Virus record (IMG/VR): IMGVR_UViG_3300020213_000027
Span: 1-64,000 of that record
Strand: one strand, 5' to 3'
DNA length: 64,000 nucleotides
Source of the DNA: a virus
How positions within the stretch are numbered: the first letter of the stretch is position 1; the number at the start of each line of letters is the position of its first letter. The translations under genes were made by a program, and so were the position numbers. The notes beneath the pieces were generated by a model. The model was not told the DNA's origin and ran no database searches. It worked only from the letters and a program-made list of their open reading frames with translations. This document shows positions 20,977 through 62,654 of this stretch, in pieces.

Positions 20977-21360
20977 ATGTCTGGTATAATATATATTATG
21001 AGCGCAAAAATATCTAAAAATGATAAGAGTTGGCTTTTAAACGTCATTAAGACTACAAGACCTCTAAATGATCTTGAATCAGCCCTTGTATTTACCACAT
21101 TTGATTCTGAAACAAATCAAGATATTACTATAATTGAGAAAGAGATTGAAAATGAGAAATTCTTAAAAAAAGTTTGTCTATACAAGCTATTAACTTTCAT
21201 CCCTGAAATTGGTTTTATAACTTTACTTTTTGATAAAAAGGTAAAAAAATCAAAAATGGAAGTGACTTCTTTATATTATAAATACTATCGTAATAAAATA
21301 AATTTAACAGACTTTCAAAATAAGTTGAAAATCTTACTAAAAGAAGGTAATATAGTATAA
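20977..21360 (+). CDS. hypothetical protein with FxxKL-type C-terminus
   Basis: ends DFQNKLKILLKE. Confidence 0.5.
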   Translation: MSGIIYIMSAKISKNDKSWLLNVIKTTRPLNDLESALVFTTFDSETNQDITIIEKEIENEKFLKKVCLYKLLTFIPEIGFITLLFDKKVKKSKMEVTSLYYKYYRNKINLTDFQNKLKILLKEGNIV

Positions 21361-21575
21361 TGAAAGCAATTTTAGAGTTTACACTTCCCGAAGAGAATGA
21401 AGAATTTAAAACAGCACAAAATGGAGCCAACTATTCCATTGCATTGTGGGATTTAGACCAATACTTGCGTTCTAAATTGAAATATGAAGAGCTTTCAGAA
21501 GAACAACACCAAGCATATCAGGATATTCGCGGCAAATTGTACGAATTAATGCAAGAAAGAGATATAGATTTTTAA
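21360..21575 (+). CDS. phage hypothetical protein
   Basis: MKAILEFTLPEE... ORF coupled to the upstream stop. Confidence 0.6.
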   Translation: MKAILEFTLPEENEEFKTAQNGANYSIALWDLDQYLRSKLKYEELSEEQHQAYQDIRGKLYELMQERDIDF

Positions 21576-21578
21576 AAG

Positions 21579-21655
21579 TTTTGGATCGTCTACGTCGGTT
21601 AGGATAGCTAGGTCGACAGAACCAGCAGAAAAAGGTTCGACTCCTTTTCCAAAAT
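21579..21655 (+). tRNA. tRNA-like element / pseudo-tRNA with aberrant anticodon arm
   Basis: acceptor TTTTGGA/TCCAAAA; D-arm GTCTA..GGTTAGGAT; T-arm AAAGG-TTCGACT-CCTTT; bulged anticodon stem, loop CGACAGA lacks U33. Confidence 0.6.
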
Positions 21656-21672
21656 CCCTTTATGAGGCCCAT

Positions 21673-21882
21673 ATGAAAAAAGAAGAAGCATTAAAAAGAA
21701 TTGAAACGGTGATTACCCAACTTGAGGGTATTTGTACTAATAAACTCATCGCTCAAATGATTATGACAGAGCTTGAATTTCTAGGTATGCTGCCTCCAAA
21801 AATCTCTAAAGTCAAAAAATATACAACTAATGGAAACATGTTTGAATCTATTGAGTATACAAATGAGTGGGAAAATACATGA
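21673..21882 (+). CDS. hypothetical protein
   Basis: ORF with GAGG RBS. Confidence 0.55.
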   Translation: MKKEEALKRIETVITQLEGICTNKLIAQMIMTELEFLGMLPPKISKVKKYTTNGNMFESIEYTNEWENT

Positions 21883-22259
21883 TTCAATTTTTTCACTTAA
21901 ATAAAGATTCTATTTTCTATTCTGGAATTGAATGTACTCTAGCTATTAATACTCCCACAAAATCAGAACTTGAGAAATTTCTCGAAAATCACTTAGAAAG
22001 TTTATATCTTCCAGTTGGAATTACTGTCAAATCTCCAAAAGATGTGTTTATTAAAAAAATTGGAAGAGAAGAGTCATTAAAAAATATACAATCTAGAGAG
22101 TGTTTTTTTGATAATCTTTCCCAAGATGGAACAAAACATGTCTATAGATTTAGAGCCTCTATTGCCCATGCAAGACATCATTTTATAGCCCATCTAATAT
22201 TTACCACAGTATTGGAAAGTGACAATGTTCAAATGATTACTGCAGAAATTTATCTATGA
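21867..22259 (+). CDS. hypothetical protein
   Basis: ORF in operon. Confidence 0.55.
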   Translation: MGKYMIQFFHLNKDSIFYSGIECTLAINTPTKSELEKFLENHLESLYLPVGITVKSPKDVFIKKIGREESLKNIQSRECFFDNLSQDGTKHVYRFRASIAHARHHFIAHLIFTTVLESDNVQMITAEIYL

Positions 22260-22513
22260 TTATTAATGATATGCCAGTTCTTGAAACTTTTAAAGATTTG
22301 ATGAATGAAATAGCTTATAATTGGAATTATCCAATTAATGCTATTATTAAAACAGAAGATGGTTGCTATGTAGTAGATAAACTATATATTCAAAAAGATG
22401 TGGTGTCCTATAAAACAAACCATTGGTATTTAGCTCCAGGAGTTTATGAACAATTTGAGATCTTCTATGGTCTTTTACATCCTATTAACTATCACGAAAT
22501 ACGAGAATTTTAA
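22256..22513 (+). CDS. hypothetical protein
   Basis: ORF in operon, ATGA overlap. Confidence 0.5.
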   Translation: MIINDMPVLETFKDLMNEIAYNWNYPINAIIKTEDGCYVVDKLYIQKDVVSYKTNHWYLAPGVYEQFEIFYGLLHPINYHEIREF

Positions 22514-25028: not shown

Positions 25029-25029
25029 A

Positions 25030-25830: not shown

Positions 25831-26886
25831 ATGACGCCTTCTAAGATATTTGATGTTCTTGATCTAGCCAAACGTGCTCGCAAACTTGGGGAAGTGTTTA
25901 ATCCTTTATTTGTAGGTCCTCCAGGCGTAGGAAAATCTCATATCGTTCAAGCTTGGGCTAAGAAGAATAATCTACCCTTTATTGATCTTCGAATCGCTTA
26001 TATGGAGGCACCAGATTTGATTGGCTTTCCTTCTATCGAAGTTAAGAATGGCCGACAAATTACAGTTCACAATCTTCCAGAATTTCTTCCATATGAAGGT
26101 GAAGGAGTTCTTCTTCTTGAAGAACCTAATAGAGGCACTTCAAGCGTTATGAATTGTCTCATGCAGCTTCTTACTGATCGCAAGCTTCATAAATATGAAC
26201 TTCCTGAAGGATGGATTATTGTTGGTTGTATTAATCCTGAAGGCGAGCATTACGATGTAAATACAATGGATGCTGCTCTTCGTGATCGATTTGAGATGTT
26301 TCAAGTAACGTATGATAAGCATACTTTTCTAGATTATATGAAATCTGCTAATTGGAATAAAGATATTATTAACTTTGTTGAAGCCGGACTTTGGACTTTT
26401 AAAACTCCCGAAGAACTTGGGAATTTGCCAGGAGCTAAGTACATTTCTCCTAGAACTAAATCTAAACTTAATGCAGCACTCAGAGCTGGATTTGCTCAAG
26501 AAGATGAACTTTTGATTTTTGAGACTGTTCTTGGAACAAATGTTGCAAAAGATTTTTATAACTTCAGACATAATGAATCTCCAGTAATGATGACAGATCT
26601 TAAAAAGAATCTAAAACAAGCTCTTGGACGTCTTAAAGTATTTTCAGATCCAAATAATTATAAAAATGGAATGATTTCTCTTACTGTTAAAGATATTCTT
26701 GAGGATAATACAATTACTGATGATATGCTTGCTGACGTAGTTAGAACAATTCCTGTAGAACAAGGAACAGTTCTTATTAGAGATCTAGAGCATAAACGAA
26801 ATGATGATAATATTCTCTCAAGAGTTTGTAAACAACATAAAGATGTAAAAGATCTCTTTAGATCTATTATGAAATATGGAAAATAG
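25831..26886 (+). CDS. MoxR/dynein-related AAA+ ATPase
   Basis: GPPGVGKS, LLLEEPNR, INP, MDAALRDRF. Confidence 0.9.
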   Translation: MTPSKIFDVLDLAKRARKLGEVFNPLFVGPPGVGKSHIVQAWAKKNNLPFIDLRIAYMEAPDLIGFPSIEVKNGRQITVHNLPEFLPYEGEGVLLLEEPNRGTSSVMNCLMQLLTDRKLHKYELPEGWIIVGCINPEGEHYDVNTMDAALRDRFEMFQVTYDKHTFLDYMKSANWNKDIINFVEAGLWTFKTPEELGNLPGAKYISPRTKSKLNAALRAGFAQEDELLIFETVLGTNVAKDFYNFRHNESPVMMTDLKKNLKQALGRLKVFSDPNNYKNGMISLTVKDILEDNTITDDMLADVVRTIPVEQGTVLIRDLEHKRNDDNILSRVCKQHKDVKDLFRSIMKYGK

Positions 26887-26931
26887 ATTATAAAAATTAT
26901 CTTTTTAAAAAGAAATTAGAGGGTATGGTCA

Positions 26932-28221
26932 ATGAGTGAACAAGAAGTTCCAATTTCAGATGATGAGAAAAAGAAAGCTTTACAATCAGCTATATTTCAT
27001 CTTAGTAATCAACAACCATTCTATGGAAGTTTAGTTCAAGAAATAACTGTAAAATATACTACTTTTATTCCAACTGCTGGCATAACTTATAATGTAAAAC
27101 AGCATCAATATGAAATTTATATCAATCCTTATTTTTTTCATAGTCTAACTACTGAGGAAAGAGTTGCTGTTTTTCACCATGAGATCCTCCATTTCACTAA
27201 TAAACACCTATTTCGATTACCTTTTACTGATGGGACAATTAGTAATGAAGATAAAAAGCTATATAACATAGCTGGTGATATGGCTATTAACCAATATATT
27301 ACAGGACTTCCAAAAGGTGGTGTTGAGGTAAAAGATTGGAAAATGAGTAATGGTTCCCCATTTGAACAGTACCAAAATATGGAATATTATTATGACTTGA
27401 TCAAAGAAGAATCAAAGAAGCAGCAGAAGAATAAAGATGGTGATGAACCTGGTGAGCAATCAAAAGACGGTAATGAAGAATCTAAAGGAACTAAAGGCAA
27501 CGTTCATGAGCAGTTAGATAAATATAAAGAATTTGATAGACATTTCTGGGATAGTTTGGATGAAGAAACTAAAAAGAAGATGTTAGAAGAAGCTAAGAAG
27601 ATTATTAAGCGTACTATAGAAAAGACTTCTTTTAGTCATAGTGTAGTTCCTGATAGTATTAAAGATCTATTATCTGAAATTGATTCTCTATCAGCCTCTA
27701 TTAACTATAAACAAATTCTTAAAAATACTATTAAACGAACTATATCTTGTGTTGATAGAGAAAGAACATGGAAGAAACCTAATAAGCGATATGGAGCTTA
27801 TAGTCCTGGAACCAAGGTAGGATCTCTTCCTAAATGCGCATTCTTTAATGATAGCAGTGGAAGTATTTCTATTAAAGAACAAAATGAATATCTTAGAATG
27901 ATGGATGAATTCCTAAAAGTAGGAACTAGAAGTTGTACTCTAGGATTTTGGCATACTTCTCTTTATTATAAAAAACCATATAAACGTGGAATAGAGCTTG
28001 ATCAAGAGGCTTTACAATCAGGTGGAACTGATGTAAGATGTGTATTGGAAGACATTAAAAAGAATAATTATAATCTTTCAATTATTTTTACAGACGGTTA
28101 TTATGATAATGTTGATATTAAATTAACTAATGAAATTATATGGATCATATCAAAAGATGGAAATTTAGATCATCCTTTAAAACATTTAGGTAAAACTATA
28201 GAATTGGATAAAATTAAATGA
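26932..28221 (+). CDS. putative metallopeptidase + VWA-like protein (DUF2201-type), partner of the AAA ATPase
   Basis: HHEILH, NIAGDMAIN, DSSGSI, GGTD, FTDGY. Confidence 0.85.
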   Translation: MSEQEVPISDDEKKKALQSAIFHLSNQQPFYGSLVQEITVKYTTFIPTAGITYNVKQHQYEIYINPYFFHSLTTEERVAVFHHEILHFTNKHLFRLPFTDGTISNEDKKLYNIAGDMAINQYITGLPKGGVEVKDWKMSNGSPFEQYQNMEYYYDLIKEESKKQQKNKDGDEPGEQSKDGNEESKGTKGNVHEQLDKYKEFDRHFWDSLDEETKKKMLEEAKKIIKRTIEKTSFSHSVVPDSIKDLLSEIDSLSASINYKQILKNTIKRTISCVDRERTWKKPNKRYGAYSPGTKVGSLPKCAFFNDSSGSISIKEQNEYLRMMDEFLKVGTRSCTLGFWHTSLYYKKPYKRGIELDQEALQSGGTDVRCVLEDIKKNNYNLSIIFTDGYYDNVDIKLTNEIIWIISKDGNLDHPLKHLGKTIELDKIK

Positions 28222-28508
28222 GTGACACACATACGTTTCAAGATTCAAGAAAGAAATTCACATTAACTGTTAAGATTGAATTTCTTAAAAAATGTGAGAA
28301 ACCTATTGAATATGATGCATACGATTTAAATAATAAGTTCTATATGTTTAAGTTTCTTCATAATCCAGCTGGACCCGCACTTATTCGACATGAAGATAAC
28401 TATGAAGAGTATTGGATTGACGGTAAAAATCTAGCCCATGCGAACCCTGAACTTAATAAAAAAATGAAACATACCAATAAATTTAATAAAAAATTAGAAG
28501 ATCTATGA
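28218..28508 (+). CDS. hypothetical protein with FxxKL tag
   Basis: LHNPAGPA...EYWIDG repeat-like unit; ends KFNKKLEDL. Confidence 0.6.
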   Translation: MSDTHTFQDSRKKFTLTVKIEFLKKCEKPIEYDAYDLNNKFYMFKFLHNPAGPALIRHEDNYEEYWIDGKNLAHANPELNKKMKHTNKFNKKLEDL

Positions 28509-28690
28509 ATGACAAATTTACGGGAATCATCCCACTAGATAGCCATTCTTCTGATATAAGATTTTGGGTTTATTATATTAATGGTATAGAAGTTACAAAA
28601 GAAGTATATACGATTCATATGGATGAACTTATTAAAAGATATAAGTTCAATAAAAAACTAAAGGAGATAGTCAATGAGGACGATAAATAA
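28505..28690 (+). CDS. hypothetical protein with FxxKL tag
   Basis: ends KFNKKLKEIVNE. Confidence 0.55.
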   Translation: MNDKFTGIIPLDSHSSDIRFWVYYINGIEVTKEVYTIHMDELIKRYKFNKKLKEIVNEDDK

Positions 28691-30136: not shown

Positions 30137-30320
30137 GTTAATAAAGCTAATTATGGACATCCTTAAAACAACACAGATTACAACGCATTCAAAGAAGAGA
30201 CTATTATCTAGACTTCAGGATCTTGCTCCCCTGCCCCCAGAACTATCTAGGAAGGCCAGAGAAGTGCTTGAGAAGAGAAAACAAAAGGTAGAGCAGACTC
30301 CTAAAAGGAAAATGAAATGA
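30081..30320 (+). CDS. hypothetical basic protein
   Basis: ORF in operon. Confidence 0.45.
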   Translation: MWIKNQLCIVRPLGMKTSKLIKLIMDILKTTQITTHSKKRLLSRLQDLAPLPPELSRKAREVLEKRKQKVEQTPKRKMK

Positions 30321-30592
30321 GTGACATATTAAAACAAGTTGACGAAAGAATTGTCATACATAAGAAAACAATGGTAGAATGTGAACAAAAGATTGAAAGA
30401 CTCCTAGAGATTAGAACTCTATTATTAAATGTGTCTCCAACTACCTATGTGATATTTGATAAAATTAGCAACTTCGCTGCTTCAAAGCAATATGTTAGTG
30501 TGGAAGAACTTACCAATGCTCTAATTAGTATAGATAAGGATATTAAGTCAGTACAATTTACAACAAAGCTAGAGAAAGAAATAGAGTCATAG
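30317..30592 (+). CDS. hypothetical protein with FxxKL tag
   Basis: ends QFTTKLEKEIES. Confidence 0.55.
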   Translation: MSDILKQVDERIVIHKKTMVECEQKIERLLEIRTLLLNVSPTTYVIFDKISNFAASKQYVSVEELTNALISIDKDIKSVQFTTKLEKEIES

Positions 30593-30593
30593 A

Positions 30594-30818
30594 ATGAAGC
30601 CTATGTTATTAGAAATCTACAAAGGTTACCACATATATTGGGACATCTGCGTTATATATTGGGACATCTGCGTTGAAAGGAATAAGGCCTATTTTATGGA
30701 GAAGAAAATAGTTCATATACCATCTACTGATACTAGCAATATTAAACTAATCATAAATGCTTGGGAGAAACCTAAGGAATTCCAAGATAAACTAGAGAAG
30801 TTAATAAATGAAACCTAA
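30594..30818 (+). CDS. hypothetical protein with FxxKL tag
   Basis: ends EFQDKLEKLINET. Confidence 0.55.
   Translation: MKPMLLEIYKGYHIYWDICVIYWDICVERNKAYFMEKKIVHIPSTDTSNIKLIINAWEKPKEFQDKLEKLINET
30633..30674 (+). repeat. perfect 21-bp tandem duplication (IYWDICV x2)
   Basis: ATATATTGGGACATCTGCGTT twice. Confidence 0.9.
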
Positions 30819-36769: not shown

Positions 36770-36908
36770 TATGATTGACAAACTATTAAAAGGCTTATTT
36801 ATTTTAGTTATTTGCTTTCTAATCTATTTTACTGGTTGGTGTCAAGGATTTAATCGAGGCTACGATGTTGGAGAACAGATTACTAAGCAGACTTATAGGA
36901 TACAATAA
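36714..36908 (+). CDS. small membrane protein
   Basis: TM segment; likely start at MIDKLL. Confidence 0.45.
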   Translation: MQKLITKTITHLLNFGWINMIDKLLKGLFILVICFLIYFTGWCQGFNRGYDVGEQITKQTYRIQ

Positions 36909-37141
36909 TGTTTAAAAATAATTTCATACAAATATTAGATGTTAATGATAGATCAGTTTGGATAGATTATACAAAGATTATATGTTTACATAAAGATGAA
37001 GGCAACCCAAATCAAATTAGAATCTTCCTGGAAGGTAAACAAATCTGGCTTGATATAAGTATAGATAGCTTTTTTGATATAATAAACAAGCATGAGCATA
37101 ACTTAAAATTTAATAAGTCTTTAGAAGAGATTATTAGTTGA
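36908..37141 (+). CDS. hypothetical protein with FxxKL-like tag
   Basis: ends KFNKSLEEIIS. Confidence 0.55.
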   Translation: MFKNNFIQILDVNDRSVWIDYTKIICLHKDEGNPNQIRIFLEGKQIWLDISIDSFFDIINKHEHNLKFNKSLEEIIS

Positions 37142-37828: not shown

Positions 37829-38005
37829 TTGGAAATTAAAAAAGAGGATATAGTAAAAACACATTTAAGACCTGGAGATTATTTCTTTGTCTTAAAAAGA
37901 AAAAAAGACATGATCTTAATTTCTACATATAATTTAGGAAATCATTGGATTAGAGATATATTTTTTGAGCTTGTGACTTCCATTTTCCGAAGGAGAAAAT
38001 CTTGA
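37829..38005 (+). CDS. 58-aa member of the ..DIV...[ST]xxFR family (not in ORF track)
   Basis: EIKKEDIV...FELVTSIFR; fills the gap exactly. Confidence 0.55.
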   Translation: MEIKKEDIVKTHLRPGDYFFVLKRKKDMILISTYNLGNHWIRDIFFELVTSIFRRRKS

Positions 38006-43898: not shown

Positions 43899-45002
43899 AT
43901 GACACAAAAACTATCATTTAGTGCAATAAATACATATACACAATGCGGTAGAAAATATGAGCTTCGTTATAAGAAGAATCTAAGAGGTAAGTATTTTCAT
44001 GCAGCTTTAGCATTTGGATCTGCAATTGATTCTTCTCTCAATGAGCTTCTATTAACTAAGGATTTATCTAAAGCAAAATTAGTATTTGACAAACAATGGA
44101 ATTTTCAATTTATTAATAAGAAATATACGTCTTTACCAAGTTATACGGACATAGTTTATGCTGAAGCTGATTTTGATGAAGAATTATTAACTGATGCTGA
44201 TAAGAATGATTTGCATGTAACTCTTTTAAATTTAAATGTTGATGGAACTTATTTAGAAATATATAATAATGTTCTAGAAGAGAAAAAAAGCAAAGGCTGG
44301 GATAATTTAACTCTAGAAAAAAGAAAATTCTTTAATTATACTAATTGGCTATCCTTAAGACAAAAAGGATATATAATGCTAGAAAGCTATAATAAAAAAG
44401 TTATGCACCAAATAGAAGAGGTCCTTGCTGTTCAAAAGGAAAATTATCTTCAAAACTCAGATGGTGATAAGGTAGTTCAATATTTAGATTTAATTGTAAG
44501 GTGGAAAGATGGACAAAGCATATTATTTGACAATAAAACTAGCGCTAGGGACTATGACATGGATAGCGCTGCACGCAGCCCGCAGCTCATCAGCTATTAT
44601 CATGGCGCTAAAGAAGAATATGGATTAAATGCCATAGGCTTCATAGTTTTAAAGAAAAATATACTTAAAAATAGACAAAAGATATGCAGCATTTGTATCA
44701 ATGATGGAAGTGGAGGTCGTCATAAGACTTGTGATGCTACTATCAATGGAAAACGTTGTAATGGTAAATGGAATGAAAGAATCGACCCAGAAGCTAGCAT
44801 CCAAATTGTTATTAATAAAGTAACAGACGTAGCTGAAAATTTAGTACTTGAAACCTTTAATGAAGCTAATGATGGAATTAAAAAAGGTAATTTTTATAGG
44901 AATTTATCAGCATGTCAAAATGGACCTATAATTTGTGAGTATAAGAATCTTTGTTGGAAGAATGATTCTAGTGAAATTGTAGATATGAGTAATGAAAAAT
45001 GA
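43899..45002 (+). CDS. PD-(D/E)XK exonuclease (RecB/Cas4-like)
   Basis: LSFSAINTYTQC, YLDL...FDNKT, QLISY, C-terminal C..C....C. Confidence 0.8.
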   Translation: MTQKLSFSAINTYTQCGRKYELRYKKNLRGKYFHAALAFGSAIDSSLNELLLTKDLSKAKLVFDKQWNFQFINKKYTSLPSYTDIVYAEADFDEELLTDADKNDLHVTLLNLNVDGTYLEIYNNVLEEKKSKGWDNLTLEKRKFFNYTNWLSLRQKGYIMLESYNKKVMHQIEEVLAVQKENYLQNSDGDKVVQYLDLIVRWKDGQSILFDNKTSARDYDMDSAARSPQLISYYHGAKEEYGLNAIGFIVLKKNILKNRQKICSICINDGSGGRHKTCDATINGKRCNGKWNERIDPEASIQIVINKVTDVAENLVLETFNEANDGIKKGNFYRNLSACQNGPIICEYKNLCWKNDSSEIVDMSNEK

Positions 45003-45325
45003 ATAAACTAATTTGGTATCCAATTACTAAAAAAACATACACTCATAAAAAAGCTTTAAATTATGCTAAAGCTAGAGGATTAAGATTACCAACTGTTGAA
45101 GAAATTAAAGAAGCTATTAAAAATAAAGAAGATTTAGGTAAAGTTTCATTCTGGTCATCGGAGGTTCATCCAGATGGTCCCGAATTCGCCTTCGTCTTCT
45201 TGGACGATGGCTATATTCTCAGCGACAATCGTGACTTTGGCTTATCGGTGCGCTGCGTGGAGACTGAGAAAGAAAAGTATAATAAAGAATTTAAAAATAA
45301 GCTTGATAATTTAATAAATGAATAG
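44999..45325 (+). CDS. DUF1566/C-type-lectin-like protein with DGR-type variable region and FxxKL tag
   Basis: RLPTVEE, FWSS, SVRCV; GC-rich 45149-45260; ends EFKNKLDNLINE. Confidence 0.65.
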   Translation: MNKLIWYPITKKTYTHKKALNYAKARGLRLPTVEEIKEAIKNKEDLGKVSFWSSEVHPDGPEFAFVFLDDGYILSDNRDFGLSVRCVETEKEKYNKEFKNKLDNLINE

Positions 45326-45746
45326 TATAATAAACATATTAGAACGACTGATAGGATTTTTAAGGAGAATATCGATGGCCAGACCTAAAACAATAACACT
45401 TGAGCATGGAACAGTTTCACTTCAAGGATTTCCAAAAGAAGTATCCGAAGCTCTTGCTGAACATATTAAGAACTATGGAAAACCTGCTTCAACAGAAGCA
45501 ACTACATCTACAGTTTCTATTCCCACTTCTTCTGTAACAACACCAATCCCTGTCAATCAAGTTAGTTCTGAACTAACTGACACAGCTGTGGGAGTTAGAC
45601 AGATTGGTAATAAATATGAACTAGTTCTAGTAAAATATAATGCACAGACTAAAGATGCCAGTGTGCTAACTGTAGAGCCCTATGAATTTAGAAGAGAGGC
45701 TATTATGAAGTTTAAGATGAAAGCTTCTGAATTGAATTTTGTTTAA
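45318..45746 (+). CDS. hypothetical protein
   Basis: ORF; likely start at MARPK after AAGGAG. Confidence 0.55.
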   Translation: MNSIINILERLIGFLRRISMARPKTITLEHGTVSLQGFPKEVSEALAEHIKNYGKPASTEATTSTVSIPTSSVTTPIPVNQVSSELTDTAVGVRQIGNKYELVLVKYNAQTKDASVLTVEPYEFRREAIMKFKMKASELNFV

Positions 45747-47707: not shown

Positions 47708-47920
47708 TTTATGAAGATCAAAAAAACTATTAAAGCAACAGTTGGAAATATAATAAAACATAAATCTGAATACTTTTATAAAAGGTTTGGATATGGGTTT
47801 ATTATTGAAATCGTTAAAGATGAAATATCAGTAATTTGGGGAATACTCGAATCTAGATCTCTTTATACTAAAACATATTTAAACAATATGGAATTAATAA
47901 CAGATGTATTCAAAGTTTAA
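47690..47920 (+). CDS. small protein of the G[DN]II...[ST]xxF family
   Basis: TVGNII ... ELITDVFK; start likely 47711. Confidence 0.5.
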   Translation: MSRVFLFMKIKKTIKATVGNIIKHKSEYFYKRFGYGFIIEIVKDEISVIWGILESRSLYTKTYLNNMELITDVFKV

Positions 47921-48098
47921 AAAAGGTGATATAGTAATTACAATGAATGATCAATATGAATTTCTTATGGATAAACCAATCTACGATAAAGATTATTATG
48001 GGAAATATAAAATTCAAGTTGGACCAACAGCTCATATTTCAGCAAAAATTGCTAAGTTAGTAACAAAAGTTTTTAGAGAGGAAGATAATGGAATATAG
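47904..48098 (+). CDS. small protein of the GDIV...[ST]xxFR family
   Basis: KFKKGDIV ... KLVTKVFREE. Confidence 0.55.
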   Translation: MYSKFKKGDIVITMNDQYEFLMDKPIYDKDYYGKYKIQVGPTAHISAKIAKLVTKVFREEDNGI

Positions 48099-50016: not shown

Positions 50017-50186
50017 TGAGATTAGGAGATATTGTACAACATAATATATTAAGAGAGTATGGATTTGTTTATAAAGTCCAATCTGAGAAATATTTTGTAC
50101 GATTTCCTGGTAGATCTTTTGCTTATGTTTATACATATCAAAGTCCTCAAATGTTAAAAATTATAAGTAAGGCATTTAGAGAATGA
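50016..50186 (+). CDS. 56-aa member of the GDIV...[ST]xxFR family (not in ORF track)
   Basis: MRLGDIV...KIISKAFRE; coupled to the helicase stop and polymerase start. Confidence 0.6.
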   Translation: MRLGDIVQHNILREYGFVYKVQSEKYFVRFPGRSFAYVYTYQSPQMLKIISKAFRE

Positions 50187-52399
50187 ATTCTCATTTAATA
50201 ACTACATTTGAAGATTTTGAGAAACTTAAAGAGTATGTTTCTATTCAATCTTATGAATATGTAGTTCTCGATACTGAAACTGATGGTGTGATTGAAAGAA
50301 AAGCTAAACTGTACGGCATTGGAATATGTTTCACAAATGAAGAAGCCTTTTACATTCCCATTCGTAATTCGCGAACTGAAAAATGGTGGACAGTTGAGCA
50401 AGAAGAAGCTATTAAACAATTCATCTATGATTTAGCTATTAAATATAAACTCATAGGCCACAATATAATATACGATATTCTTGTTCTTCAAAATAATTGG
50501 GGATATGATCTTACAAGTAGTATCTTCAGTGATACTATCTTATTAAAGCATACTTTAGATGAAGAACGGCCTCATGGACTAAAAGAAACATCAGTAAAGT
50601 ATTTAGGAGCATGGGCGGATAAAGCTCAGGAGGCTCTACATACAAATATCATAAAGAATGGTGGCAAAGCTACAAAGAATCATATGGAGATGTGGCGCGC
50701 TGATTCAGAGGTATTAGGAGTGTATTGCTGCTGGGATGTATTATTGACTCGCAAATTATTTGATCTATTCAATCCTAAACTTATAGCAGAAGGACTTCAT
50801 GATCTATTTTATATAGACGAAATCATGCCTCTTTATAAAGAAGTGACTATTCCAATGAAGCAACATGGATTTCCAATAGATGTTCCTTATTTTAGTACCC
50901 TAAATGAAAATATCACTAAAGAGATTGAAAATTTAGAAAAGAAAATACTTATTGAGATTAGACCTTTAATTCTAAATTATGAACAAGAACTACTAAATGA
51001 AATGTATCCTGTAAAGAAAACTGGCCTATTTCCAAAACATTGTGCACAAGTTATTAACTTTGACTTACCTAAGAATAAAAATGGAGATATTACTTTATCC
51101 AAAAAAGAACTATTAAAGATTAATCAAGAAAATAGAACGCCAGCACAAATGCAGTATTTAGATTGGATTTTAGGAGATGGGGAATTAGATAAAGATTTGA
51201 TTCTAGAAACTAGACTACTTTGGCACAATGCCCCAATTTTTAATCTAAAATCTAATGATGACTTGAAATATCTATTTTTTAATAAATTGGGATATGAACC
51301 TATCGGTCATACTGAAAAAGGCGAACCTCAAATTGATGATGAATTCTTAGAAAGTATTAAATCTCAACAAAGTTGGATTCAACTATTAGTTGATATTAAA
51401 AAACTTAACAAACTAAAAGCAACATATATAGAAGGAATTTTAGAAAGACAAATTGATGGAGTGATTTATACGAGCATGTTACAGTTTGGAACAACTTCTG
51501 GAAGATATAGTAGTAAAGATCCTAATCTTCAAAATCTACCTAGGGTAAAAGAAGATGATAGTGGTTTATCTGAATTAGTACTAATATATGTAAATAGCAT
51601 CAAAAAAGGATTTATAGCTGGTCCTGGTAAAAAAATTATAAATGCAGACTATAGCCAACTTGAACCTAGAGCATTTGCTGAAGCTTCTAATGATAAACTT
51701 CTACAGCAATCATTTATCAATGGAGAAGATCTATATGGATCTATTGCAGTTAATGTTTGGCATCTAGATTGCAAACCAAATGAAGTTAAAAAGAAATACC
51801 CAGAATATCGACAGCAAGCCAAAATAATCGCTTTAGCAGTTGTTTATGGAGCCGAAGCCGGGCGCATATCGAAATTAATGGGGATTGATTATAAAGAAGC
51901 TCAACAAGTTATAGACGACTATTTAAATGCTTATCCTGGACTTAGAACTTATATGTCAGAGTGTAATAAGGAAGTTTGCACTAAAGGCGAAATTAGAACT
52001 AAATATGGACGCATCAGACATCTTCCTGAAGCAAAACGACTATTCAATGCTTATGGTTTAAAATTATTAGATAAACAATGGGCTAAAAAGCAAGGACTAG
52101 ATGAAACTCGTTGGAAATTTAAAAATATGCTCAATTTAGCCAAAAATCATAAGATTCAAGGTTTAGCAGCTAGAATCGTTAATAGTGCTTCTATCGCTGT
52201 AAATAGGGAATTTAAAAGACAAAATATTAATGCACTAATGATAATGAATCTTCATGATGAGATAACTGTAATAGCAGATGAAAATCAATCAGAAAAAGTT
52301 AAAACTATTTTAAAAGATTGTATGGAAAATACTATAAAACTATCGGTACCACTTAAAGCAGATCCTATTATAGCAAATAATTGGTCAGAGGCTAAATAG
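50183..52399 (+). CDS. polA: family A DNA polymerase with 3'-5' exonuclease (Leu at the Phe762-equivalent position)
   Basis: LDTET, GHNIIYD, TTSGRYSS..PNLQN, ADYSQLE, RQQAKIIALAVVYG, HDE. Confidence 0.95.
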   Translation: MNSHLITTFEDFEKLKEYVSIQSYEYVVLDTETDGVIERKAKLYGIGICFTNEEAFYIPIRNSRTEKWWTVEQEEAIKQFIYDLAIKYKLIGHNIIYDILVLQNNWGYDLTSSIFSDTILLKHTLDEERPHGLKETSVKYLGAWADKAQEALHTNIIKNGGKATKNHMEMWRADSEVLGVYCCWDVLLTRKLFDLFNPKLIAEGLHDLFYIDEIMPLYKEVTIPMKQHGFPIDVPYFSTLNENITKEIENLEKKILIEIRPLILNYEQELLNEMYPVKKTGLFPKHCAQVINFDLPKNKNGDITLSKKELLKINQENRTPAQMQYLDWILGDGELDKDLILETRLLWHNAPIFNLKSNDDLKYLFFNKLGYEPIGHTEKGEPQIDDEFLESIKSQQSWIQLLVDIKKLNKLKATYIEGILERQIDGVIYTSMLQFGTTSGRYSSKDPNLQNLPRVKEDDSGLSELVLIYVNSIKKGFIAGPGKKIINADYSQLEPRAFAEASNDKLLQQSFINGEDLYGSIAVNVWHLDCKPNEVKKKYPEYRQQAKIIALAVVYGAEAGRISKLMGIDYKEAQQVIDDYLNAYPGLRTYMSECNKEVCTKGEIRTKYGRIRHLPEAKRLFNAYGLKLLDKQWAKKQGLDETRWKFKNMLNLAKNHKIQGLAARIVNSASIAVNREFKRQNINALMIMNLHDEITVIADENQSEKVKTILKDCMENTIKLSVPLKADPIIANNWSEAK

Positions 52400-52403
52400 A
52401 GGA

Positions 52404-52646
52404 TTGATTATGATTACTACAGGTAGTATTATTTCAGGTACTTTATTTGTAAATTGCGATTCAGGAGCTCTTGCTATAGACAAACTTGAAAATCTATTAA
52501 AACTCCGTGGCGCCAATACATTTTGTGATAGCAATAATTCAGATAAATATTATATCTTAATTGAAAAGATTGAACTTGACGCTCTAAAAGCAGAATTACA
52601 TAGACTGCAGTTCCAATTAAAACTTGATAATCTTATAAAAGAGTGA
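52404..52646 (+). CDS. hypothetical protein with FxxKL tag
   Basis: ends QFQLKLDNLIKE. Confidence 0.5.
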   Translation: MIMITTGSIISGTLFVNCDSGALAIDKLENLLKLRGANTFCDSNNSDKYYILIEKIELDALKAELHRLQFQLKLDNLIKE

Positions 52647-52658
52647 GATAATAATTGT

Positions 52659-54372: not shown

Positions 54373-54635
54373 ATAAAGGAAATATTATTCTTATATTGGG
54401 ATGTTTAATATCTATTGTAGGATTGTCTATTTTAGCTCTTTATGGTTTTACTCCCAAATTTAAACCCGGAGATTGTATTACATTGAAAAATCTTGAAGAA
54501 TGGGATAACTTTAAATGTAAAGTATTAAAAGTAGGAAAATATAAATATCTTCTAGATTGTCCTGGTTTTTCAAATAAAAAAGATCCTTACATAAATGATA
54601 CAGATTCTGAATATGGAAAAGTAGCTTGTGAATAG
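54351..54635 (+). CDS. membrane-anchored small Cys protein (FKPGDCI family)
   Basis: TM + KFKPGDCI...KVAC. Confidence 0.5.
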   Translation: MFGRKTMNKGNIILILGCLISIVGLSILALYGFTPKFKPGDCITLKNLEEWDNFKCKVLKVGKYKYLLDCPGFSNKKDPYINDTDSEYGKVACE

Positions 54636-54894
54636 GATATCTGCTTTGTATTTTGCATTTAAATTATATCTACAAGTTAGATATATGCTTTATAAGCATA
54701 ACATTCCTTGGAAATATGTTCATGAGGAGTTAATTTTATATCTTATGGAATTAGATACTTTTTATCTACCTAAAAATATGATACCCTCATTTATATTATT
54801 TCATATTGAAAACACATTTATAATAGAAGTCATTAAAACAAATCTAGTTTATAGAAAAAGATTTGAAGAAAAGTTAAATAGGATTATTAAATGA
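54628..54894 (+). CDS. hypothetical protein with FxxKL tag
   Basis: ends [11 protein letters not shown]. Confidence 0.5.
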   Translation: MNRISALYFAFKLYLQVRYMLYKHNIPWKYVHEELILYLMELDTFYLPKNMIPSFILFHIENTFIIEVIKTNLVYRKRFEEKLNRIIK

Positions 54895-55994: not shown

Positions 55995-56256
55995 TCTATT
56001 TCTAATACTCACAAGTTGTGCAACTATTCCTAAACATAGATTTGAATTAGGAGATTGTATTATTTATTATAAGAGAACGCCACACCCTTTGATGCATTTT
56101 CCTGAAGAAGTTATTGATATCAATAAAGAAGGATATGTTACTAGAATAGTTCCAATGTGGCATTTTACTAGGCCAAGACTAAATAATATTCCTTTTAATA
56201 ATGAAGAAGACTATCTTAAAGTTGGTTGTCCAGTTCTAATGAAAGAATACGATTAA
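55966..56256 (+). CDS. putative lipoprotein (FELGDCI family)
   Basis: LTSC lipobox; RFELGDCI...KVGC. Confidence 0.5.
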   Translation: MKPMEKIIASLFLILTSCATIPKHRFELGDCIIYYKRTPHPLMHFPEEVIDINKEGYVTRIVPMWHFTRPRLNNIPFNNEEDYLKVGCPVLMKEYD

Positions 56257-56339
56257 TGAAGTTTCATTATTTAAGAAGTTTGGGCTATCCTAATAAGGTA
56301 TTTAATGCTAAACTAGAAAAGTTAGCAGATGATGAGTAA
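56256..56339 (+). CDS. 27-aa peptide consisting largely of the FxxKL tag (not in ORF track)
   Basis: MKFHYLRSLGYPNKVFNAKLEKLADDE; TAATG coupling. Confidence 0.5.
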   Translation: MKFHYLRSLGYPNKVFNAKLEKLADDE

Positions 56340-58849: not shown

Positions 58850-58850
58850 T

Positions 58851-59528: not shown

Positions 59529-59534
59529 ATTTAC

Positions 59535-59819
59535 ATGATCGAAAAGCTTAAATTACTTTTTCAAAAATTAAATGAAAAAGGCATACCAATCCCATTATTG
59601 ACAGATCCACGAACTAAAATAGGAAGTGTTTCTCTAACTATGTTAGTGATATCATTCAATATTGTTTTAATAGGATTAGTTGGTAAATGGTCAAAATATT
59701 TAGATATTGATTTACAGCAAGCTATTTATTGGTTTATGGTTTGTTCTGGTCTTTACTTTGGAAGAGCTGTTTCTAAGAATGGCAATAATACTCAATTAGA
59801 TAATAAGGAAATTAAATGA
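59535..59819 (+). CDS. 2-TM membrane protein (holin-like size)
   Basis: two hydrophobic helices. Confidence 0.5.
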   Translation: MIEKLKLLFQKLNEKGIPIPLLTDPRTKIGSVSLTMLVISFNIVLIGLVGKWSKYLDIDLQQAIYWFMVCSGLYFGRAVSKNGNNTQLDNKEIK

Positions 59820-60574
59820 ATTTTAAGATATTAAGTTTTGTTGGTGTAAGTGTGTTGGCAATGGTAACTAGTGTGGGTTGGATGTTTAATAATGTAGCAA
59901 CTAGTAAAGAAGTGCTTATTCCTTCTACAAACCTTGAAAACAAAGTTATAAAACTCCAACCAGTTCCTTCTAACAACAGTTCTGTGTTACGTCTAAATCT
60001 TCTTTCAGAACAAGTTGTCCAACTTAAAGGACCTATTTTTGAAAATGCAGAATTTGTAGTTGAAGAGCTAAAACAAAAAGCCAAGACCCAAAAGGAACTA
60101 TTTCTTTTGATTGATAGTCCTGGAGGTAGTGTGATGGCTGGAGCAATGATCCTATCAGCAATGGAGGCATCACCTGCATTAGTCCATACTGTTTGTATGG
60201 GACTTTGTGCAAGTATGGCTTTTGTTATTCATCAATATGGACACTCAAGACTAGCTCTTAATAGAGCTATTCTTATGGCACATCCAGCTGCTGGAGGAGT
60301 AGAAGGAACACTTGGGCAAATGAGTGCTAGACTATCTACTATTACTAGATATGTAGATAAAATGGATGCACATATTGCTAAACGAGCTAAGATTAGTTTT
60401 GAAGACTTTAAAGCTCTTACTGTATCTGAATTTTGGATTGATTCAGAAGATGCCCTTGAAAAACATTTTCTTGATAAAATTGTAGATATTAATGTTGATG
60501 CCTCTGGTACGGTATTTATTATGAAACAACAATCAGATGACAATCTTTATAAACATATGGATTTGGTTTGGTAA
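59816..60574 (+). CDS. ClpP-family protease with N-terminal signal/anchor
   Basis: IDSPGGSV, CASMA, MAHP. Confidence 0.85.
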   Translation: MNFKILSFVGVSVLAMVTSVGWMFNNVATSKEVLIPSTNLENKVIKLQPVPSNNSSVLRLNLLSEQVVQLKGPIFENAEFVVEELKQKAKTQKELFLLIDSPGGSVMAGAMILSAMEASPALVHTVCMGLCASMAFVIHQYGHSRLALNRAILMAHPAAGGVEGTLGQMSARLSTITRYVDKMDAHIAKRAKISFEDFKALTVSEFWIDSEDALEKHFLDKIVDINVDASGTVFIMKQQSDDNLYKHMDLVW

Positions 60575-61228
60575 ATGATAAAGAGAATTTTGTTCTACAC
60601 ACTCCTAATAACCATTGGCTTTATTTCTTTTGCTCCTCATAAAAAGCAGGTGGTATCTCCAGATCTAAATATTGCATTTGGGCTAAAGTTTAATAATAGG
60701 GGTTTTTATCCCATAGTTAGATTAGTAGATCCTATATTAAAATATAGTTGTACAGCTTTTATTATCGATACAAATTATGCAATAACAGCTGCTCATTGTT
60801 TAAATTCTCAAGGATCATTACCTACCCATGATTTACAAGTATTTTTGAATCAAACTAATCAATATGTTCCAGTAAGAGCTATGGGATATGATGAAGATTT
60901 AGATACTGGTCTTGTTATGGGAGACTTTCATTTATTTAGATCGCTAAATACAGACTTTAAAAATGAGATGGATGATTCTTCTGATTTTTTAGCTTGTGGC
61001 TATCCAAGAAATCAAAAAAGAATGATTTGTAATAAATTTACACCAGAAACTAGATCTTTTGATATAGTTAAAGGTAGAGGACAATTTTATCATGGTATGT
61101 CTGGTGGTCCAGTTATTAACACTTACACAAATAAGGTAATAGGAATAGTCGATGCAATGGATGGAGAAGGCTATGCTTATGTAGTTCCTCTTCAAGCATT
61201 CTTTGGTATATTTCCTCAAATTGAATGA
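60575..61228 (+). CDS. trypsin-like serine protease with N-terminal anchor
   Basis: ITAAHC, DTGL, GMSGGP. Confidence 0.85.
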   Translation: MIKRILFYTLLITIGFISFAPHKKQVVSPDLNIAFGLKFNNRGFYPIVRLVDPILKYSCTAFIIDTNYAITAAHCLNSQGSLPTHDLQVFLNQTNQYVPVRAMGYDEDLDTGLVMGDFHLFRSLNTDFKNEMDDSSDFLACGYPRNQKRMICNKFTPETRSFDIVKGRGQFYHGMSGGPVINTYTNKVIGIVDAMDGEGYAYVVPLQAFFGIFPQIE

Positions 61229-61650
61229 ATATTGAACAAAATACAATTGAAGTTAATAAGATTATAAAAAATTTAAATGATCATCTGATTAAAGATAGTT
61301 TTAATAAATCCGGTCATGCGGTGCGGTATAATTTTTGGATTAGTGATATTTTTTATACCATAGAGCCTAACGTGAGGTATCTATTAATAAATATACCTTA
61401 TACAGTCTTTCTTAGACAAACTTGGCAATCTACATTATTAGCTCAATTTGAAATGGGTATAAATAAACTAAAGAAAAAATTGAAATTAGAATCTAATAAA
61501 TATATAGGTAATATTTATATTACTCAGATTTTTATCTCACCAAATTATAATGGGATAGAATGTAGCATTATTGCTAGAGCTGAAGATATATCTAAATTAT
61601 TAGATAACGAAAAATTTAAAAACAAATTAGAGGATCTTATAAATGAATGA
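61225..61650 (+). CDS. hypothetical protein with FxxKL tag
   Basis: ends KFKNKLEDLINE. Confidence 0.55.
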   Translation: MNIEQNTIEVNKIIKNLNDHLIKDSFNKSGHAVRYNFWISDIFYTIEPNVRYLLINIPYTVFLRQTWQSTLLAQFEMGINKLKKKLKLESNKYIGNIYITQIFISPNYNGIECSIIARAEDISKLLDNEKFKNKLEDLINE

Positions 61651-62137
61651 AGTATTGAAAAAAGGACTAATTATTATTAGTTTGGTAGGAATTGGTGTTG
61701 CAGCTGGCAGGTTTGCAGCACCAACCAAAACTATTGAAAAAGAAGTTATTAAAGAAGTAGAGAAGATTGTAGAAAAAAGAATAATCGTAAAAGATACTTC
61801 TGAGAAAAAGAACAAAGTTACAGTAAGGTTAGTAACTATCCATCCTGATGGTACTAAAACTATTGAAACACGAATTACTGATAAAAGTGAGATTGAAGTC
61901 ACACAAAACGAGAATTCTACTAAAACAGATGATAAATCTCTTGACAAGTCAATTGAAAAAGTGGTAGAGTATAGTAAAGATGATTACTATCTTGGTTTAG
62001 GAATTAAGACTAATTTGACTACTGGTGGACTTGCCTATGGACTTCATGCCCAACGTAGAATTTTAGGACCTATTCACCTAGGCATCTTTGGATATAGTGA
62101 TCTATCTCTTGGAGCAAATGCTGGCATAAGTTTTTAA
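61643..62137 (+). CDS. envelope protein (N-terminal TM, charged stalk, beta-rich C-terminus ending in F); possible spanin-like
   Basis: topology pattern only. Confidence 0.45.
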   Translation: MNEVLKKGLIIISLVGIGVAAGRFAAPTKTIEKEVIKEVEKIVEKRIIVKDTSEKKNKVTVRLVTIHPDGTKTIETRITDKSEIEVTQNENSTKTDDKSLDKSIEKVVEYSKDDYYLGLGIKTNLTTGGLAYGLHAQRRILGPIHLGIFGYSDLSLGANAGISF

Positions 62138-62466
62138 TGAAAATATCTATATCTGACTTAATAAAAATAGCTAACGAAGACAAGGATGAATTATCCTATA
62201 ATAGAATCACTACAAGTAATGATGTATTTAGATTTGTATTAGCTATGGATATTAGAGAAGGTAAGCACAAAGTAAGAACTACATTTATTTATAAAGCTTA
62301 TAAATCTTGGAGTTTAAAACCTTACCCTAAGATTTCTTTTTTTACGTATTTTTCAAGTATATTTCGTAATAATAGAATATCTGATGATAAAAGATATTAT
62401 GAGCTAAATTATACTGCAGTAAAACTTTTAAATAAAATTGATAATTTAAAGATAAGGATAAAATGA
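62137..62466 (+). CDS. hypothetical protein
   Basis: ORF in operon. Confidence 0.5.
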   Translation: MKISISDLIKIANEDKDELSYNRITTSNDVFRFVLAMDIREGKHKVRTTFIYKAYKSWSLKPYPKISFFTYFSSIFRNNRISDDKRYYELNYTAVKLLNKIDNLKIRIK

Positions 62467-62654
62467 GCACACTAGCTGAAATATTTAGAGAAATCTATTA
62501 TGATCCAATTGATAAGCTTATTGGCTATAATTGGATTGATTTAGAAGGAAACGATTTTAAATTTGAGTCGGAAATGGAAAGAGATAATTATATAAAATTA
62601 TATTATCACAATAAGAAATTTAATAAAAAACTAGAGGATATTATAAATGAGTAA
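62463..62654 (+). CDS. hypothetical protein with FxxKL tag
   Basis: ends KFNKKLEDIINE. Confidence 0.55.
   Translation: MSTLAEIFREIYYDPIDKLIGYNWIDLEGNDFKFESEMERDNYIKLYYHNKKFNKKLEDIINE

What the first reader, a model, noticed from the sequence alone, without database searches (positions are those of the whole stretch)
20977..62654. About 12 otherwise unrelated small proteins share a C-terminal F-x-x-K-L-[ED]-x-[LI]-I-x-E tag
Seen in sequence, C-termini: FQNKLKILLKE (20977), FNKKLEDL (28218), FNKKLKEIVNE (28505), FTTKLEKEIES (30317), FQDKLEKLINE (30594), FNKSLEEIIS (36908), FKNKLDNLINE (44999), FQLKLDNLIKE (52404), [10 protein letters not shown] (54628), FNAKLEKLADDE (27-aa peptide at 56256), FKNKLEDLINE (61225), FNKKLEDIINE (62463). 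The N-terminal bodies are dissimilar, and one is a DUF1566 lectin-like domain. Codons vary synonymously (TTT/TTC, TTA/CTA/CTT/TTG, AAA/AAG), which points to selection on the peptide rather than a DNA repeat. Inference: a modular amphipathic-helix address tag that docks diverse cargo onto one partner. Candidates are capsid loading, a host complex, or the phage AAA/VWA-peptidase pair, which is directly followed by two tagged genes. Caveat: the final E-D-x-I-N-E residues may partly reflect the next gene's RBS and ATG overlap, but that does not explain the F..KL core.
Basis: partly seen in the sequence, partly recalled or inferred. Interest (0 to 1): 0.88.

Follow-up and report, generated by a model that had tools for sequence, protein, structure and literature searches.

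The report
Shared C-terminal helix on phage proteins
About a dozen small, mostly unrelated accessory proteins of an uncultured 80-kb phage end in the same short helix, which looks like a portable protein-binding module whose partner is still unknown.

Summary
Thirteen places on the + strand between 21 and 63 kb encode F-x-x-K-L-[EDKN]-x-[LI]-[IV]-x-E, each 8-15 codons before a stop. Composition-matched shuffles give 0.05-0.7 such C-termini, against 11 observed.

Selection acts on the peptide:
- F, K and L codons follow genome-wide synonymous usage.
- A related phage (polymerase 65% identical) carries the same tail on at least 6 ORFs, and three of these have no overlapping downstream gene.
- A metagenome-only family of 26 small proteins always ends in it, with F invariant.

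That family models as a Tad2-like domain followed by an extra C-terminal helix, and the helix is the tag. Profile comparison of three window proteins (T3, T7, T13) with that family aligns the tag only. One window protein (T8) has an Lcl_C-like body. Tagged genes are strain- and phage-variable accessory genes.

The N of the final N-E, the GAG bias at position 6 and the ATA bias at position 9 reflect the next gene's ribosome-binding site and embedded ATG.

My best reading is a modular interaction helix, for docking or co-assembly. The scan had noted this same stretch once before, with no follow-up.

The parts
20977..21360 (+). T1, 127-aa orphan ORF. The tag core is 21313-21345 and is followed by 4 more codons.
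   Evidence: The next gene's ATG lies 47 nt after the F codon, so this copy is not tied to the start of the next gene.
26904..26939 (+). Tag-coding stretch with no canonical start codon, lying between the AAA_5/MoxR gene (25831-26886) and the DUF2201 metallopeptidase-VWA gene (starts 26932). It is in the -1 frame relative to the AAA gene.
   Evidence: It is probably a remnant of a lost tagged gene. Alternatively it could be added to the AAA protein by a -1 slip at GGAAAATAG (26878-26886); this was not tested.
28218..28508 (+). T3, 96-aa ORF directly after the VWA-peptidase gene. The tag is 28482-28508 and is cut short after position 8.
   Evidence: In one search, hhalign aligns only the tail with the Tad2-like family.
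28505..28690 (+). T4, 61-aa ORF. The tag is 28646-28678 and is followed by 3 more codons. It is probably a truncated relative of the Tad2-like family.
   Evidence: HMM E = 0.0011, last strand plus tag; 25 aligned columns.
30317..30592 (+). T5, 91-aa orphan ORF. The tag is 30557-30592 and is the weakest match together with T10.
   Evidence: leave-one-out score 8.9.
30594..30818 (+). T6, 74-aa orphan ORF. The tag is 30780-30818.
   Evidence: The next ORF's ATG (30808) lies 28 nt after the F codon.
36908..37141 (+). T7, 77-aa orphan ORF. The tag is 37109-37141, with S in place of K at position 4.
   Evidence: The next gene starts 30 nt after the stop, so no ATG is embedded in this tag.
44999..45325 (+). 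T8, 108-aa ORF with an Lcl_C (DUF1566)-like body plus the tag (45290-45325).
   Evidence: ESM Atlas score 0.95 to Lcl_C clusters. In one search, the best sigma-70-like match of the 44-63 kb region (45303-45331) lies across the end of this tag.
52404..52646 (+). T9, 80-aa orphan ORF directly after the DNA polymerase gene. The tag is 52611-52646. The ORF body is present or absent between strains.
   Evidence: A co-occurring strain, and locus L013, lack the body. Homology resumes at 52609, leaving an untranslated remnant in which F has become S.
54628..54894 (+). T10, 88-aa orphan ORF. The tag is 54862-54894.
   Evidence: leave-one-out score 7.4, a weak match.
56256..56339 (+). T11, 27-aa ORF that is little more than the tag (56301-56339). 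Its ATG overlaps the stop codon of the upstream gene.
   Evidence: It may be a decayed 3' half of a Tad2-like-family gene.
61225..61650 (+). T12, 141-aa ORF after the ClpP-like and trypsin-like peptidase genes. The tag is 61615-61650.
   Evidence: A probable homologue of the same length (29% identity) in L011 sits at a different junction and also carries the tag.
62463..62654 (+). T13, 63-aa orphan ORF. The tag is 62619-62654 and is the closest to the consensus.
   Evidence: only 12 columns align with the family; the last 34 residues model as one helix, pLDDT 94.

Best explanation
The shared tail is a portable protein module selected at the amino-acid level. It is an amphipathic C-terminal alpha-helix of about 15-18 residues, with consensus [HY]-N-x-x-F-x-x-K-L-[ED]-x-[LIV]-[IL]-x-E.

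The helix is the native C-terminal extension of a metagenome-only family of about 80-residue phage proteins that have a Tad2-like domain. In this phage lineage it also sits on unrelated small accessory proteins: an Lcl_C-like domain, a 141-residue family and several orphans.

The tagged genes are variable accessory genes that sit at junctions between conserved replication genes.

Inferred, not shown: the helix most likely acts as a common protein-protein interaction element. It would either dock its carriers onto one shared partner or make them assemble with one another.

Shown: the last two or three codons are dual-use. Where the next gene overlaps, its ribosome-binding site and ATG are written into positions 6-11. 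This explains the N of N-E, but not the F..KL core.
For: C-terminal enrichment:
- 11 proteins against 0.05-0.7 in local shuffles.
- Leave-one-out ranks are 0-17 of 21,496 internal windows.

Peptide-level selection:
- Codons at F (TTT 10, TTC 3), K (AAA 8, AAG 4) and L (TTA 5, CTA 5, CTT 2, TTG 1) match genome-wide synonymous usage.
- 46 of the 54 overlapping + strand junctions have no tag, so an overlap alone does not create the motif.
- Four window copies lack the ATG at the fixed offset, and three copies in L011 have no overlapping downstream gene.

Conservation elsewhere:
- L011 (polymerase 65% identical) has six tagged ORFs within 22 kb.
- An exhaustive profile search finds 29 cluster representatives. 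The 26 single-domain members all end in the tag, with F invariant. Tandem-domain members have no helix between repeats.

Structure:
- The family model has pLDDT 91.8. Residues 1-62 match only Tad2 structures at the top of the list (Z 4.2-4.8, rmsd 2.4 A over 55 residues). Helix 62-78 is the tag and lies outside that match.
- The T13 tail models as one helix, pLDDT 94.
- 11 of 13 tags have a helical hydrophobic moment above their shuffle mean.

Modularity:
- hhalign of the family against T13, T3 and T7 aligns only 12-17 tail columns.
- The T8 body is Lcl_C-like.

The tag travels with the gene:
- At least 5 paralogues occupy different loci of L011.
- T12 and its L011 counterpart sit at different junctions.

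Genome-specific flavour: position 4 is K in 12 of 13 window copies but in 0 of 8 copies on the L011 contig. This fits co-evolution with a shared partner, or spread within one genome.
Against: - No partner was identified and no binding was tested.
- In the Tad2-like family model the helix has very high confidence, so it may simply pack on its own domain.
- Part of the motif is nucleotide-driven. Seven of 13 copies place the next ATG exactly 28 nt after F. GAG at position 6 (5 of 8 Glu) and ATA at position 9 (6 of 8 Ile) exceed genome usage of 21% and 34%.
- Two tag-coding stretches exist without a translatable ORF (26904 in the window; L013 after the polymerase gene). In the strain variant, homology resumes 2 nt before the F codon. 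The DNA itself may therefore have a role at junctions.
- T5 and T10 are weak matches.
- The homology of T12 with its L011 counterpart rests on 29% identity only.
Confidence: 0.55

Rival explanations
1. Fast-diverging paralogue family. All tagged ORFs descend from one small gene, and the C-terminal strand-plus-helix is simply the slowest-evolving part. The helix packs on its own domain or drives homo-oligomerisation. There is no shared external partner.
For: - The L011 contig has at least 5 clear paralogues.
- T4 aligns over the last strand plus the tag.
- The tail alignment hints at a hydrophobic strand followed by an acidic turn about 10 residues before F in many copies.
- The helix has high pLDDT in the monomer model.
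- Tad2 proteins are tetramers (bioRxiv 10.1101/2023.11.15.567273).
Against: - Carrier lengths range from 27 to 141 residues.
- The T8 body is Lcl_C-like.
- Profile-profile comparison aligns nothing but the tail for T13, T3 and T7.
- Tandem Tad2-like domains exist without the helix, so the domain folds without it.
Confidence: 0.25
2. Nucleotide-level junction element. The conserved stretch is the translation-initiation region or promoter of the downstream gene, and it is read through only because the genes overlap. New ORF bodies are swapped in upstream of a resident element.
For: - The ATG lies 28-29 nt after F in 8 of 13 copies, with ribosome-binding-site-like GAGGA at positions 6-7.
- ORF-less copies exist at 26904 and in L013.
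- The strain variant's breakpoint lies at the start of the tag.
- The same junction after the polymerase gene holds unrelated tagged bodies in the window and in L011.
- Sigma-70-like matches fall on the T8 and T9 tags.
Against: - The F, K and L columns vary exactly as silent sites do.
- Four window copies and three L011 copies are not aligned with a downstream start.
- 46 overlapping junctions lack the motif.
- Promoter-like sites are no more frequent than in shuffles, 97 against 98.
- The tag is invariant at F across a family of 23-50% identical proteins from many metagenomes.
- Paralogues carry the tag to new loci.
Confidence: 0.1
3. Timed-degradation signal. The helix is a degron read by a protease that the phage brings itself (the ClpP-like, trypsin-like or VWA-metallopeptidase genes), so that accessory proteins are cleared at a set stage of infection.
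For: - The phage encodes a ClpP-family protease (59816-60574) and a trypsin-like peptidase (60575-61228), directly upstream of T12.
- It encodes a MoxR-type ATPase and a metallopeptidase-VWA protein with intact HExxH and DxSxS motifs, directly upstream of T3 and T4.
- The location is strictly C-terminal, and most tags have an acidic residue at or near position 11.
Against: - Gene proximity is the only link.
- There is no resemblance to known ClpX, Lon or Tsp tags.
- The ClpP-like gene may simply be the head-maturation protease (PHROG matches).
- The residues after the helix vary, so a free C-terminus is probably not what is read.
Confidence: 0.07
4. Nascent-peptide effect. The last residues act inside the ribosome tunnel at termination to promote re-initiation on the overlapping gene.
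For: The position is always next to the stop codon, the downstream starts are often overlapping, and T11 resembles a leader peptide.
Against: - The distance from F to the stop varies from 8 to 15 codons, and the residues nearest the stop vary. This does not fit known arrest peptides (general knowledge of SecM and TnaC).
- Several copies have no overlapping gene.
Confidence: 0.03

Closest known systems
Tad2 / DUF2829 (PF11195), the Thoeris anti-defence sponge
   Same: The metagenomic family that natively carries the tag models as an N-terminal helix plus a five-stranded antiparallel sheet. This is the Tad2 protomer topology described in bioRxiv 10.1101/2023.11.15.567273. Tad2 structures are the only consistent top structural matches.
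   Different: - Sequence similarity is at noise level: one member of 26 matches, at E = 0.07.
- Z is only 4.2-4.8.
- Tad2 has no long C-terminal helix, so the tag lies outside the match.
- Ligand binding and tetramer formation were not tested.
- The window phage itself has no full-length member, only the truncated T4.
Terminal cargo-targeting peptides: encapsulin cargo-loading peptides, microcompartment encapsulation helices, and the T4 capsid targeting sequence
   Same: All are short terminal peptides, helical in the microcompartment case, shared by otherwise unrelated proteins of one system.
   Different: - There is no sequence resemblance.
- No shell-binding evidence exists.
- The carriers lie in the replication and accessory block rather than the structural block.
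- A Tad2-like sponge would gain little from being packaged.
- The T4 signal is N-terminal and is cleaved off.
Overlapping-gene junctions with translational coupling (ATGA and longer overlaps)
   Same: 54 of 91 + strand junctions overlap. In seven copies the next ATG is embedded in N-E, and positions 6-7 look like a ribosome-binding site.
   Different: A junction explains only positions 6-11. The F..KL core behaves as protein-coding sequence and also occurs where no gene overlaps.

Membership tests
Tad2 / DUF2829 (applies to the tag-bearing metagenomic family A5, not to the tag itself) | Significant match to Pfam PF11195 | tested here: not met
   one of 26 members matches, at E = 0.07; the L011 members have no Pfam match.
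Tad2 / DUF2829 | Fold: an N-terminal helix followed by a five-stranded antiparallel sheet | tested here: inconclusive
   One search gives the secondary-structure order H, E, E, E, E, E. In one search the seven best rows are all Tad2 (Z 4.2-4.8, rmsd 2.4 A, 55 residues), but Z below 8 may reflect only a common arrangement.
Tad2 / DUF2829 | Tetramer that binds gcADPR or cyclic dinucleotides | not testable with these tools
   Needs biochemistry.
Terminal cargo-targeting peptide (encapsulin, microcompartment or T4 type) | Short terminal peptide shared by unrelated proteins of one genome | tested here: met
Terminal cargo-targeting peptide | Amphipathic helix | tested here: met
   predict a helix with pLDDT of at least 94 over the tag. 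In one search the hydrophobic moment is above the shuffle mean in 11 of 13 tags.
Terminal cargo-targeting peptide | Binds a shell or capsid protein and causes encapsidation | not testable with these tools
   No binding test could be run (closed), and no virion proteome exists for this uncultured phage.
Pure nucleotide junction element (ribosome-binding site plus start codon) | Fixed distance to the downstream start codon in all copies | tested here: not met
   the distance is 28-29 nt in 8 of 13 copies and 23, 37, 47, 48 and 63 nt in the rest; three of six L011 copies are followed by 40-60 nt of spacer.
Pure nucleotide junction element | Conservation independent of codon position | tested here: not met
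   third positions of the F, K and L codons vary in genome-wide proportions. Only positions 6, 9 and 10 show a nucleotide-level bias.
Lcl_C / DUF1566 (body of T8) | Match to PF07603 | tested here: inconclusive
   E = 0.026, below the curated cut-off; the ESM Atlas features score 0.95 to clusters that carry PF07603.

The most novel reading that the evidence does not exclude
The helix is an address label of a phage-encoded sorting system. It recruits a changing set of accessory and probably anti-defence proteins, including Tad2-like sponge domains and a lectin-like domain, to one phage-encoded machine.

Candidate machines are the MoxR ATPase with the VWA-metallopeptidase, whose intact metal-binding site could take the tag's conserved acidic residue, or the ClpP-like protease.

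The tag-only 27-residue ORF, and a possible frameshift-tagged ATPase, would act as regulators of that machine.
Probability: 0.2. Interest if true: 0.85.

Novelty: new variant of a known kind. Interest (0 to 1): 0.63.

Why it matters
Most small early genes of phages have no known function and no handle for study. A shared terminal helix gives such a handle. It marks a set of accessory proteins that probably act through one interface. It also defines a previously undescribed Tad2-like family found only in metagenomes, and it offers a simple search key for further members.

If the helix proves to be a docking or assembly label, it would be a natural modular tag system in a tailed phage. Its partner could be found with a single peptide pull-down.

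The locus is also a clean worked example of how overlapping genes write ribosome-binding and start signals into the end of an upstream protein without erasing a peptide motif.

Tried and rejected
Searches that found no informative relatives:
- An IMG/VR scan for the full motif ending in I-N-E-stop gave 8 loci in 3 unrelated protein families: a baseplate-like protein of large phages and a glycosyltransferase-like protein. None has further tags, so these are consistent with chance.
- The polymerase gave no close relative in IMG/VR. The 41 distant relatives (34% identity or less) carry no tag.
- A family-based locus search and a second DNA pattern in IMG/VR found nothing related.
- GenBank phages have no match to a family member. 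The nearest cultured polymerase is from a Flavobacterium phage at 31% identity.
- T12 has no homologue except its L011 counterpart.
- Pfam and PHROGs give nothing significant for the tagged ORFs.
- The rest of the L011 contig could not be searched because the record is not held.

Tests that gave no usable result:
- No RNA holder was listed among the sequencing runs.
- Contig-level variants across 44.9-62.7 kb showed no listed difference inside any tag, but there are too few differences for a test.
- Literature searches found no prior description.

Ideas rejected:
- A membrane-targeting helix: the net charge is near zero for most tags.
- Clamp-binding, SSB-tail or ssrA-like motifs: no resemblance (general knowledge).

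- The look-up of encoding contigs, so the contigs of the other family members could not be inspected.
- Complex prediction, so no partner candidate was tested.

Full report
**Setting.** The window is the first 64 kb of a 79.8-kb IMG/VR virus record, about 31% G+C.
- Structural genes lie on the minus strand: portal, major head protein and tail genes.
- The + strand from 20.9 to 62.7 kb holds replication and accessory genes. These are a ribonucleotide reductase (annotation of the one GenBank phage match under it), a primase-helicase, a family A polymerase, an Erf-like annealing protein, thymidylate synthase, peptide deformylase, a MoxR-type ATPase, a DUF2201 metallopeptidase-VWA protein, a ClpP-like protease and a trypsin-like peptidase.
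- The same DNA is held by 11 microbial-mat metagenome runs.
- The nearest cultured polymerase is from a Flavobacterium phage at 31% identity.

**The observation.** The coordinates in the finding are ORF start codons.
- All twelve C-termini are there, plus a thirteenth copy at 26904.
- Every good match to the motif in six-frame translation lies on the + strand, 8-15 codons before a stop.
- Eleven of 142 called proteins carry F..KL in their last 16 residues. Shuffles of each protein's last 30 residues give 0.70 +/- 0.83, and 0.05 for the stricter pattern.
- With a leave-one-out scoring matrix, each copy ranks within the top 0-17 of 21,496 internal windows.

**Peptide or DNA?** Three lines of evidence point to the peptide.
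- Codon usage. At the conserved F, K and L columns the synonymous codons occur in genome-wide proportions: TTT 10 and TTC 3; AAA 8 and AAG 4; TTA 5, CTA 5, CTT 2 and TTG 1. A DNA or RNA element would not leave third positions free.
- Independence from the next gene's start. Fifty-four of 91 + strand junctions overlap, but only 8 of these follow a tagged gene. Four window copies are not aligned with a downstream ATG.
- Conservation elsewhere. A related phage contig (L011, polymerase 65% identical) has six ORFs in 22 kb that end in F-N-K-[EN]-L-[DEN]-x-[LVI]-L-[EDK]. Silent differences occur throughout. Three of the six are followed by 40-60 nt of spacer rather than an overlapping gene.

- In seven copies the next ATG starts exactly 28 nt after the F codon, inside AAT-GAR (N-E).
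- Glu at position 6 is GAG in 5 of 8 cases, against 21% genome-wide. Together with position 7 this forms a GAGGA-like ribosome-binding site.
- Ile at position 9 is ATA in 6 of 8 cases, against 34% genome-wide.
- Copies without an embedded ATG have K-E, E-S or I-S instead of N-E.

**Where the helix comes from.**
- Three of the L011 ORFs are paralogues (41-49% identical), and the same contig encodes two more.
- An exhaustive profile search of 1.84 billion representative proteins finds 29 clusters.
- The 26 single-domain members, 23-50% identical to the first, all end in the tag. F is invariant, and the helix is preceded by a conserved W-x-I-H-P-E-D.
- Two tandem three-domain members have no helix between domains.
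- The AlphaFold model has mean pLDDT 91.8. It shows an N-terminal helix, five strands, and then helix 62-78, which is the tag.
- Foldseek and VIA-align both put Tad2 structures, and only those, at the top: Z 4.2-4.8, rmsd 2.4 A over 55 residues, covering model residues 1-62.
- The published Tad2 protomer is an N-terminal helix plus a five-stranded sheet (bioRxiv 10.1101/2023.11.15.567273).
- I therefore read the family as Tad2-like with moderate support, because Pfam does not confirm it. The tag is an added C-terminal helix.

**Modularity.**
- hhalign of the family profile against T13, T3 and T7 aligns only 12-17 tail columns.
- T4 aligns over 25 columns and is probably a truncated member.
- The T8 body is Lcl_C-like.
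- T12 (141 aa) has a probable homologue of identical length in L011, at a different junction and also tagged.
- The T13 tail models as a single long helix, pLDDT 94.
- The hydrophobic residues F1, L5, L/I8 and I/L9 fall on one face of the helix. Eleven of 13 tags have a helical moment above their shuffle mean.

**The tagged genes are accessory.**
- The junction after the polymerase gene holds T9 in the window and an unrelated tagged ORF in L011.
- In L012 the same junction holds a 171-aa ORF (its C-terminus looks HNH/AP2-like by eye; no family search was run). In L013 (polymerase 82% identical) it holds nothing.
- L013 keeps an untranslated remnant of the tag in which F has become S.
- The mat metagenomes contain both forms. 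A contig variant replaces 52234-52608 with 171 nt and resumes homology at 52609, 2 nt before the F codon.
- The copy at 26904 likewise has no start codon. It is either a similar remnant or is added to the ATPase by a -1 slip at GGAAAATAG. The slip idea is only an inference.
- These ORF-less copies, and the strong sigma-70-like matches on the T8 and T9 tags, are the best evidence that the DNA also serves the downstream gene. I give the pure nucleotide reading about 10%.

**Mechanism.**
- Shown: a conserved, C-terminal, amphipathic helix under peptide-level selection, carried by unrelated small proteins.
- Inferred: it is an interaction surface.
- Position 4 is K in 12 of 13 window copies and in none of 8 copies on the L011 contig. 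This fits co-evolution with a genome-specific partner, or spread within a genome.
- I cannot say whether the partner is a phage protein, a host protein or the other tagged proteins.
- The metallopeptidase-VWA protein has intact HExxH and DxSxS motifs and is followed by T3 and T4. The ClpP-like and trypsin-like genes precede T12. These are leads only.

**Verdict.** The single-partner addressing model is plausible but untested. I found no prior description in the searchable literature. The scan had noted this same stretch once before, without follow-up.

Noticed in passing
L011:6272-6511, 8850-9080 and 18387-18632; proteins P0002-P0029: A metagenome-only family of about 75-95-residue phage proteins. 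They start M-T-F-K-E-A-L-x-T-G-Y-R, contain W-x-I-H-P-E-D, and model with a Tad2-like fold. At least 5 paralogues lie on one contig, and tandem three-domain forms exist (P0019, P0024). It is a candidate new anti-defence sponge family.
   Followed up: partly
window:52234-52608, and L013:430-485: Strain-level presence or absence of the T9 body in microbial-mat metagenomes. The variant resumes homology 2 nt before the tag's F codon and keeps an untranslated remnant of the tag.
   Followed up: partly
window:26878-26886: GGAAAATAG lies at the end of the MoxR-type ATPase gene. A -1 slip on the A run would read into the tag-coding frame and add about 18 residues ending in the tag. This could equally be a remnant or a homopolymer assembly error.
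   Followed up: no
window:45303-45331 and 52624-52652: The best sigma-70-like match of the 44-63 kb region (TTGATA, 17 nt, TATAAT) lies across the end of the T8 tag. A TTGATA, 17 nt, GATAAT match with an upstream TG lies across the end of the T9 tag, 6 nt before the pyrophosphatase ATG, which suggests a possible leaderless transcript.
   Followed up: partly
window, upstream of the genes starting at 3447(-), 6108(-), 17979(-) and 56596(+); genome 69347(-): A recurrent box, (A/T)TTAACAAGT-R-TATA, lies 15-25 nt before starts of structural genes and once on the + strand before 56596. It is a likely phage late promoter. If so, T12 and T13 would lie in a late transcription unit.
   Followed up: no
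window:25831-28221 and 59816-61228: There are two protease-related pairs in the replication block. One is a MoxR-type ATPase with a DUF2201 metallopeptidase-VWA protein (HExxH and DxSxS motifs intact). The other is a ClpP-family protease with a trypsin-like peptidase. No head-maturation protease was recognised in the structural block.
   Followed up: partly
window:4150-4347(-), 37829-38005, 47904-48098 and 50016-50186: A second set of 56-65-residue ORFs has similar C-termini (hydrophobic-F-R followed by acidic or basic residues). Two of them flank the primase-helicase gene. In L011 the matching junctions hold Tad2-like paralogues instead.
   Followed up: no
L004:5103-5915 and orthologues in L003 and L006-L010; L005:6361-7284: In unrelated large-phage contigs, a 270-residue virion-module protein and a 307-residue enzyme-like protein also end in F-x-x-K-[FL]-E-x-[LI]-I-N-E, with the next ATG embedded. 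These are single occurrences per locus and are probably coincidence produced by the same junction style.
   Followed up: partly
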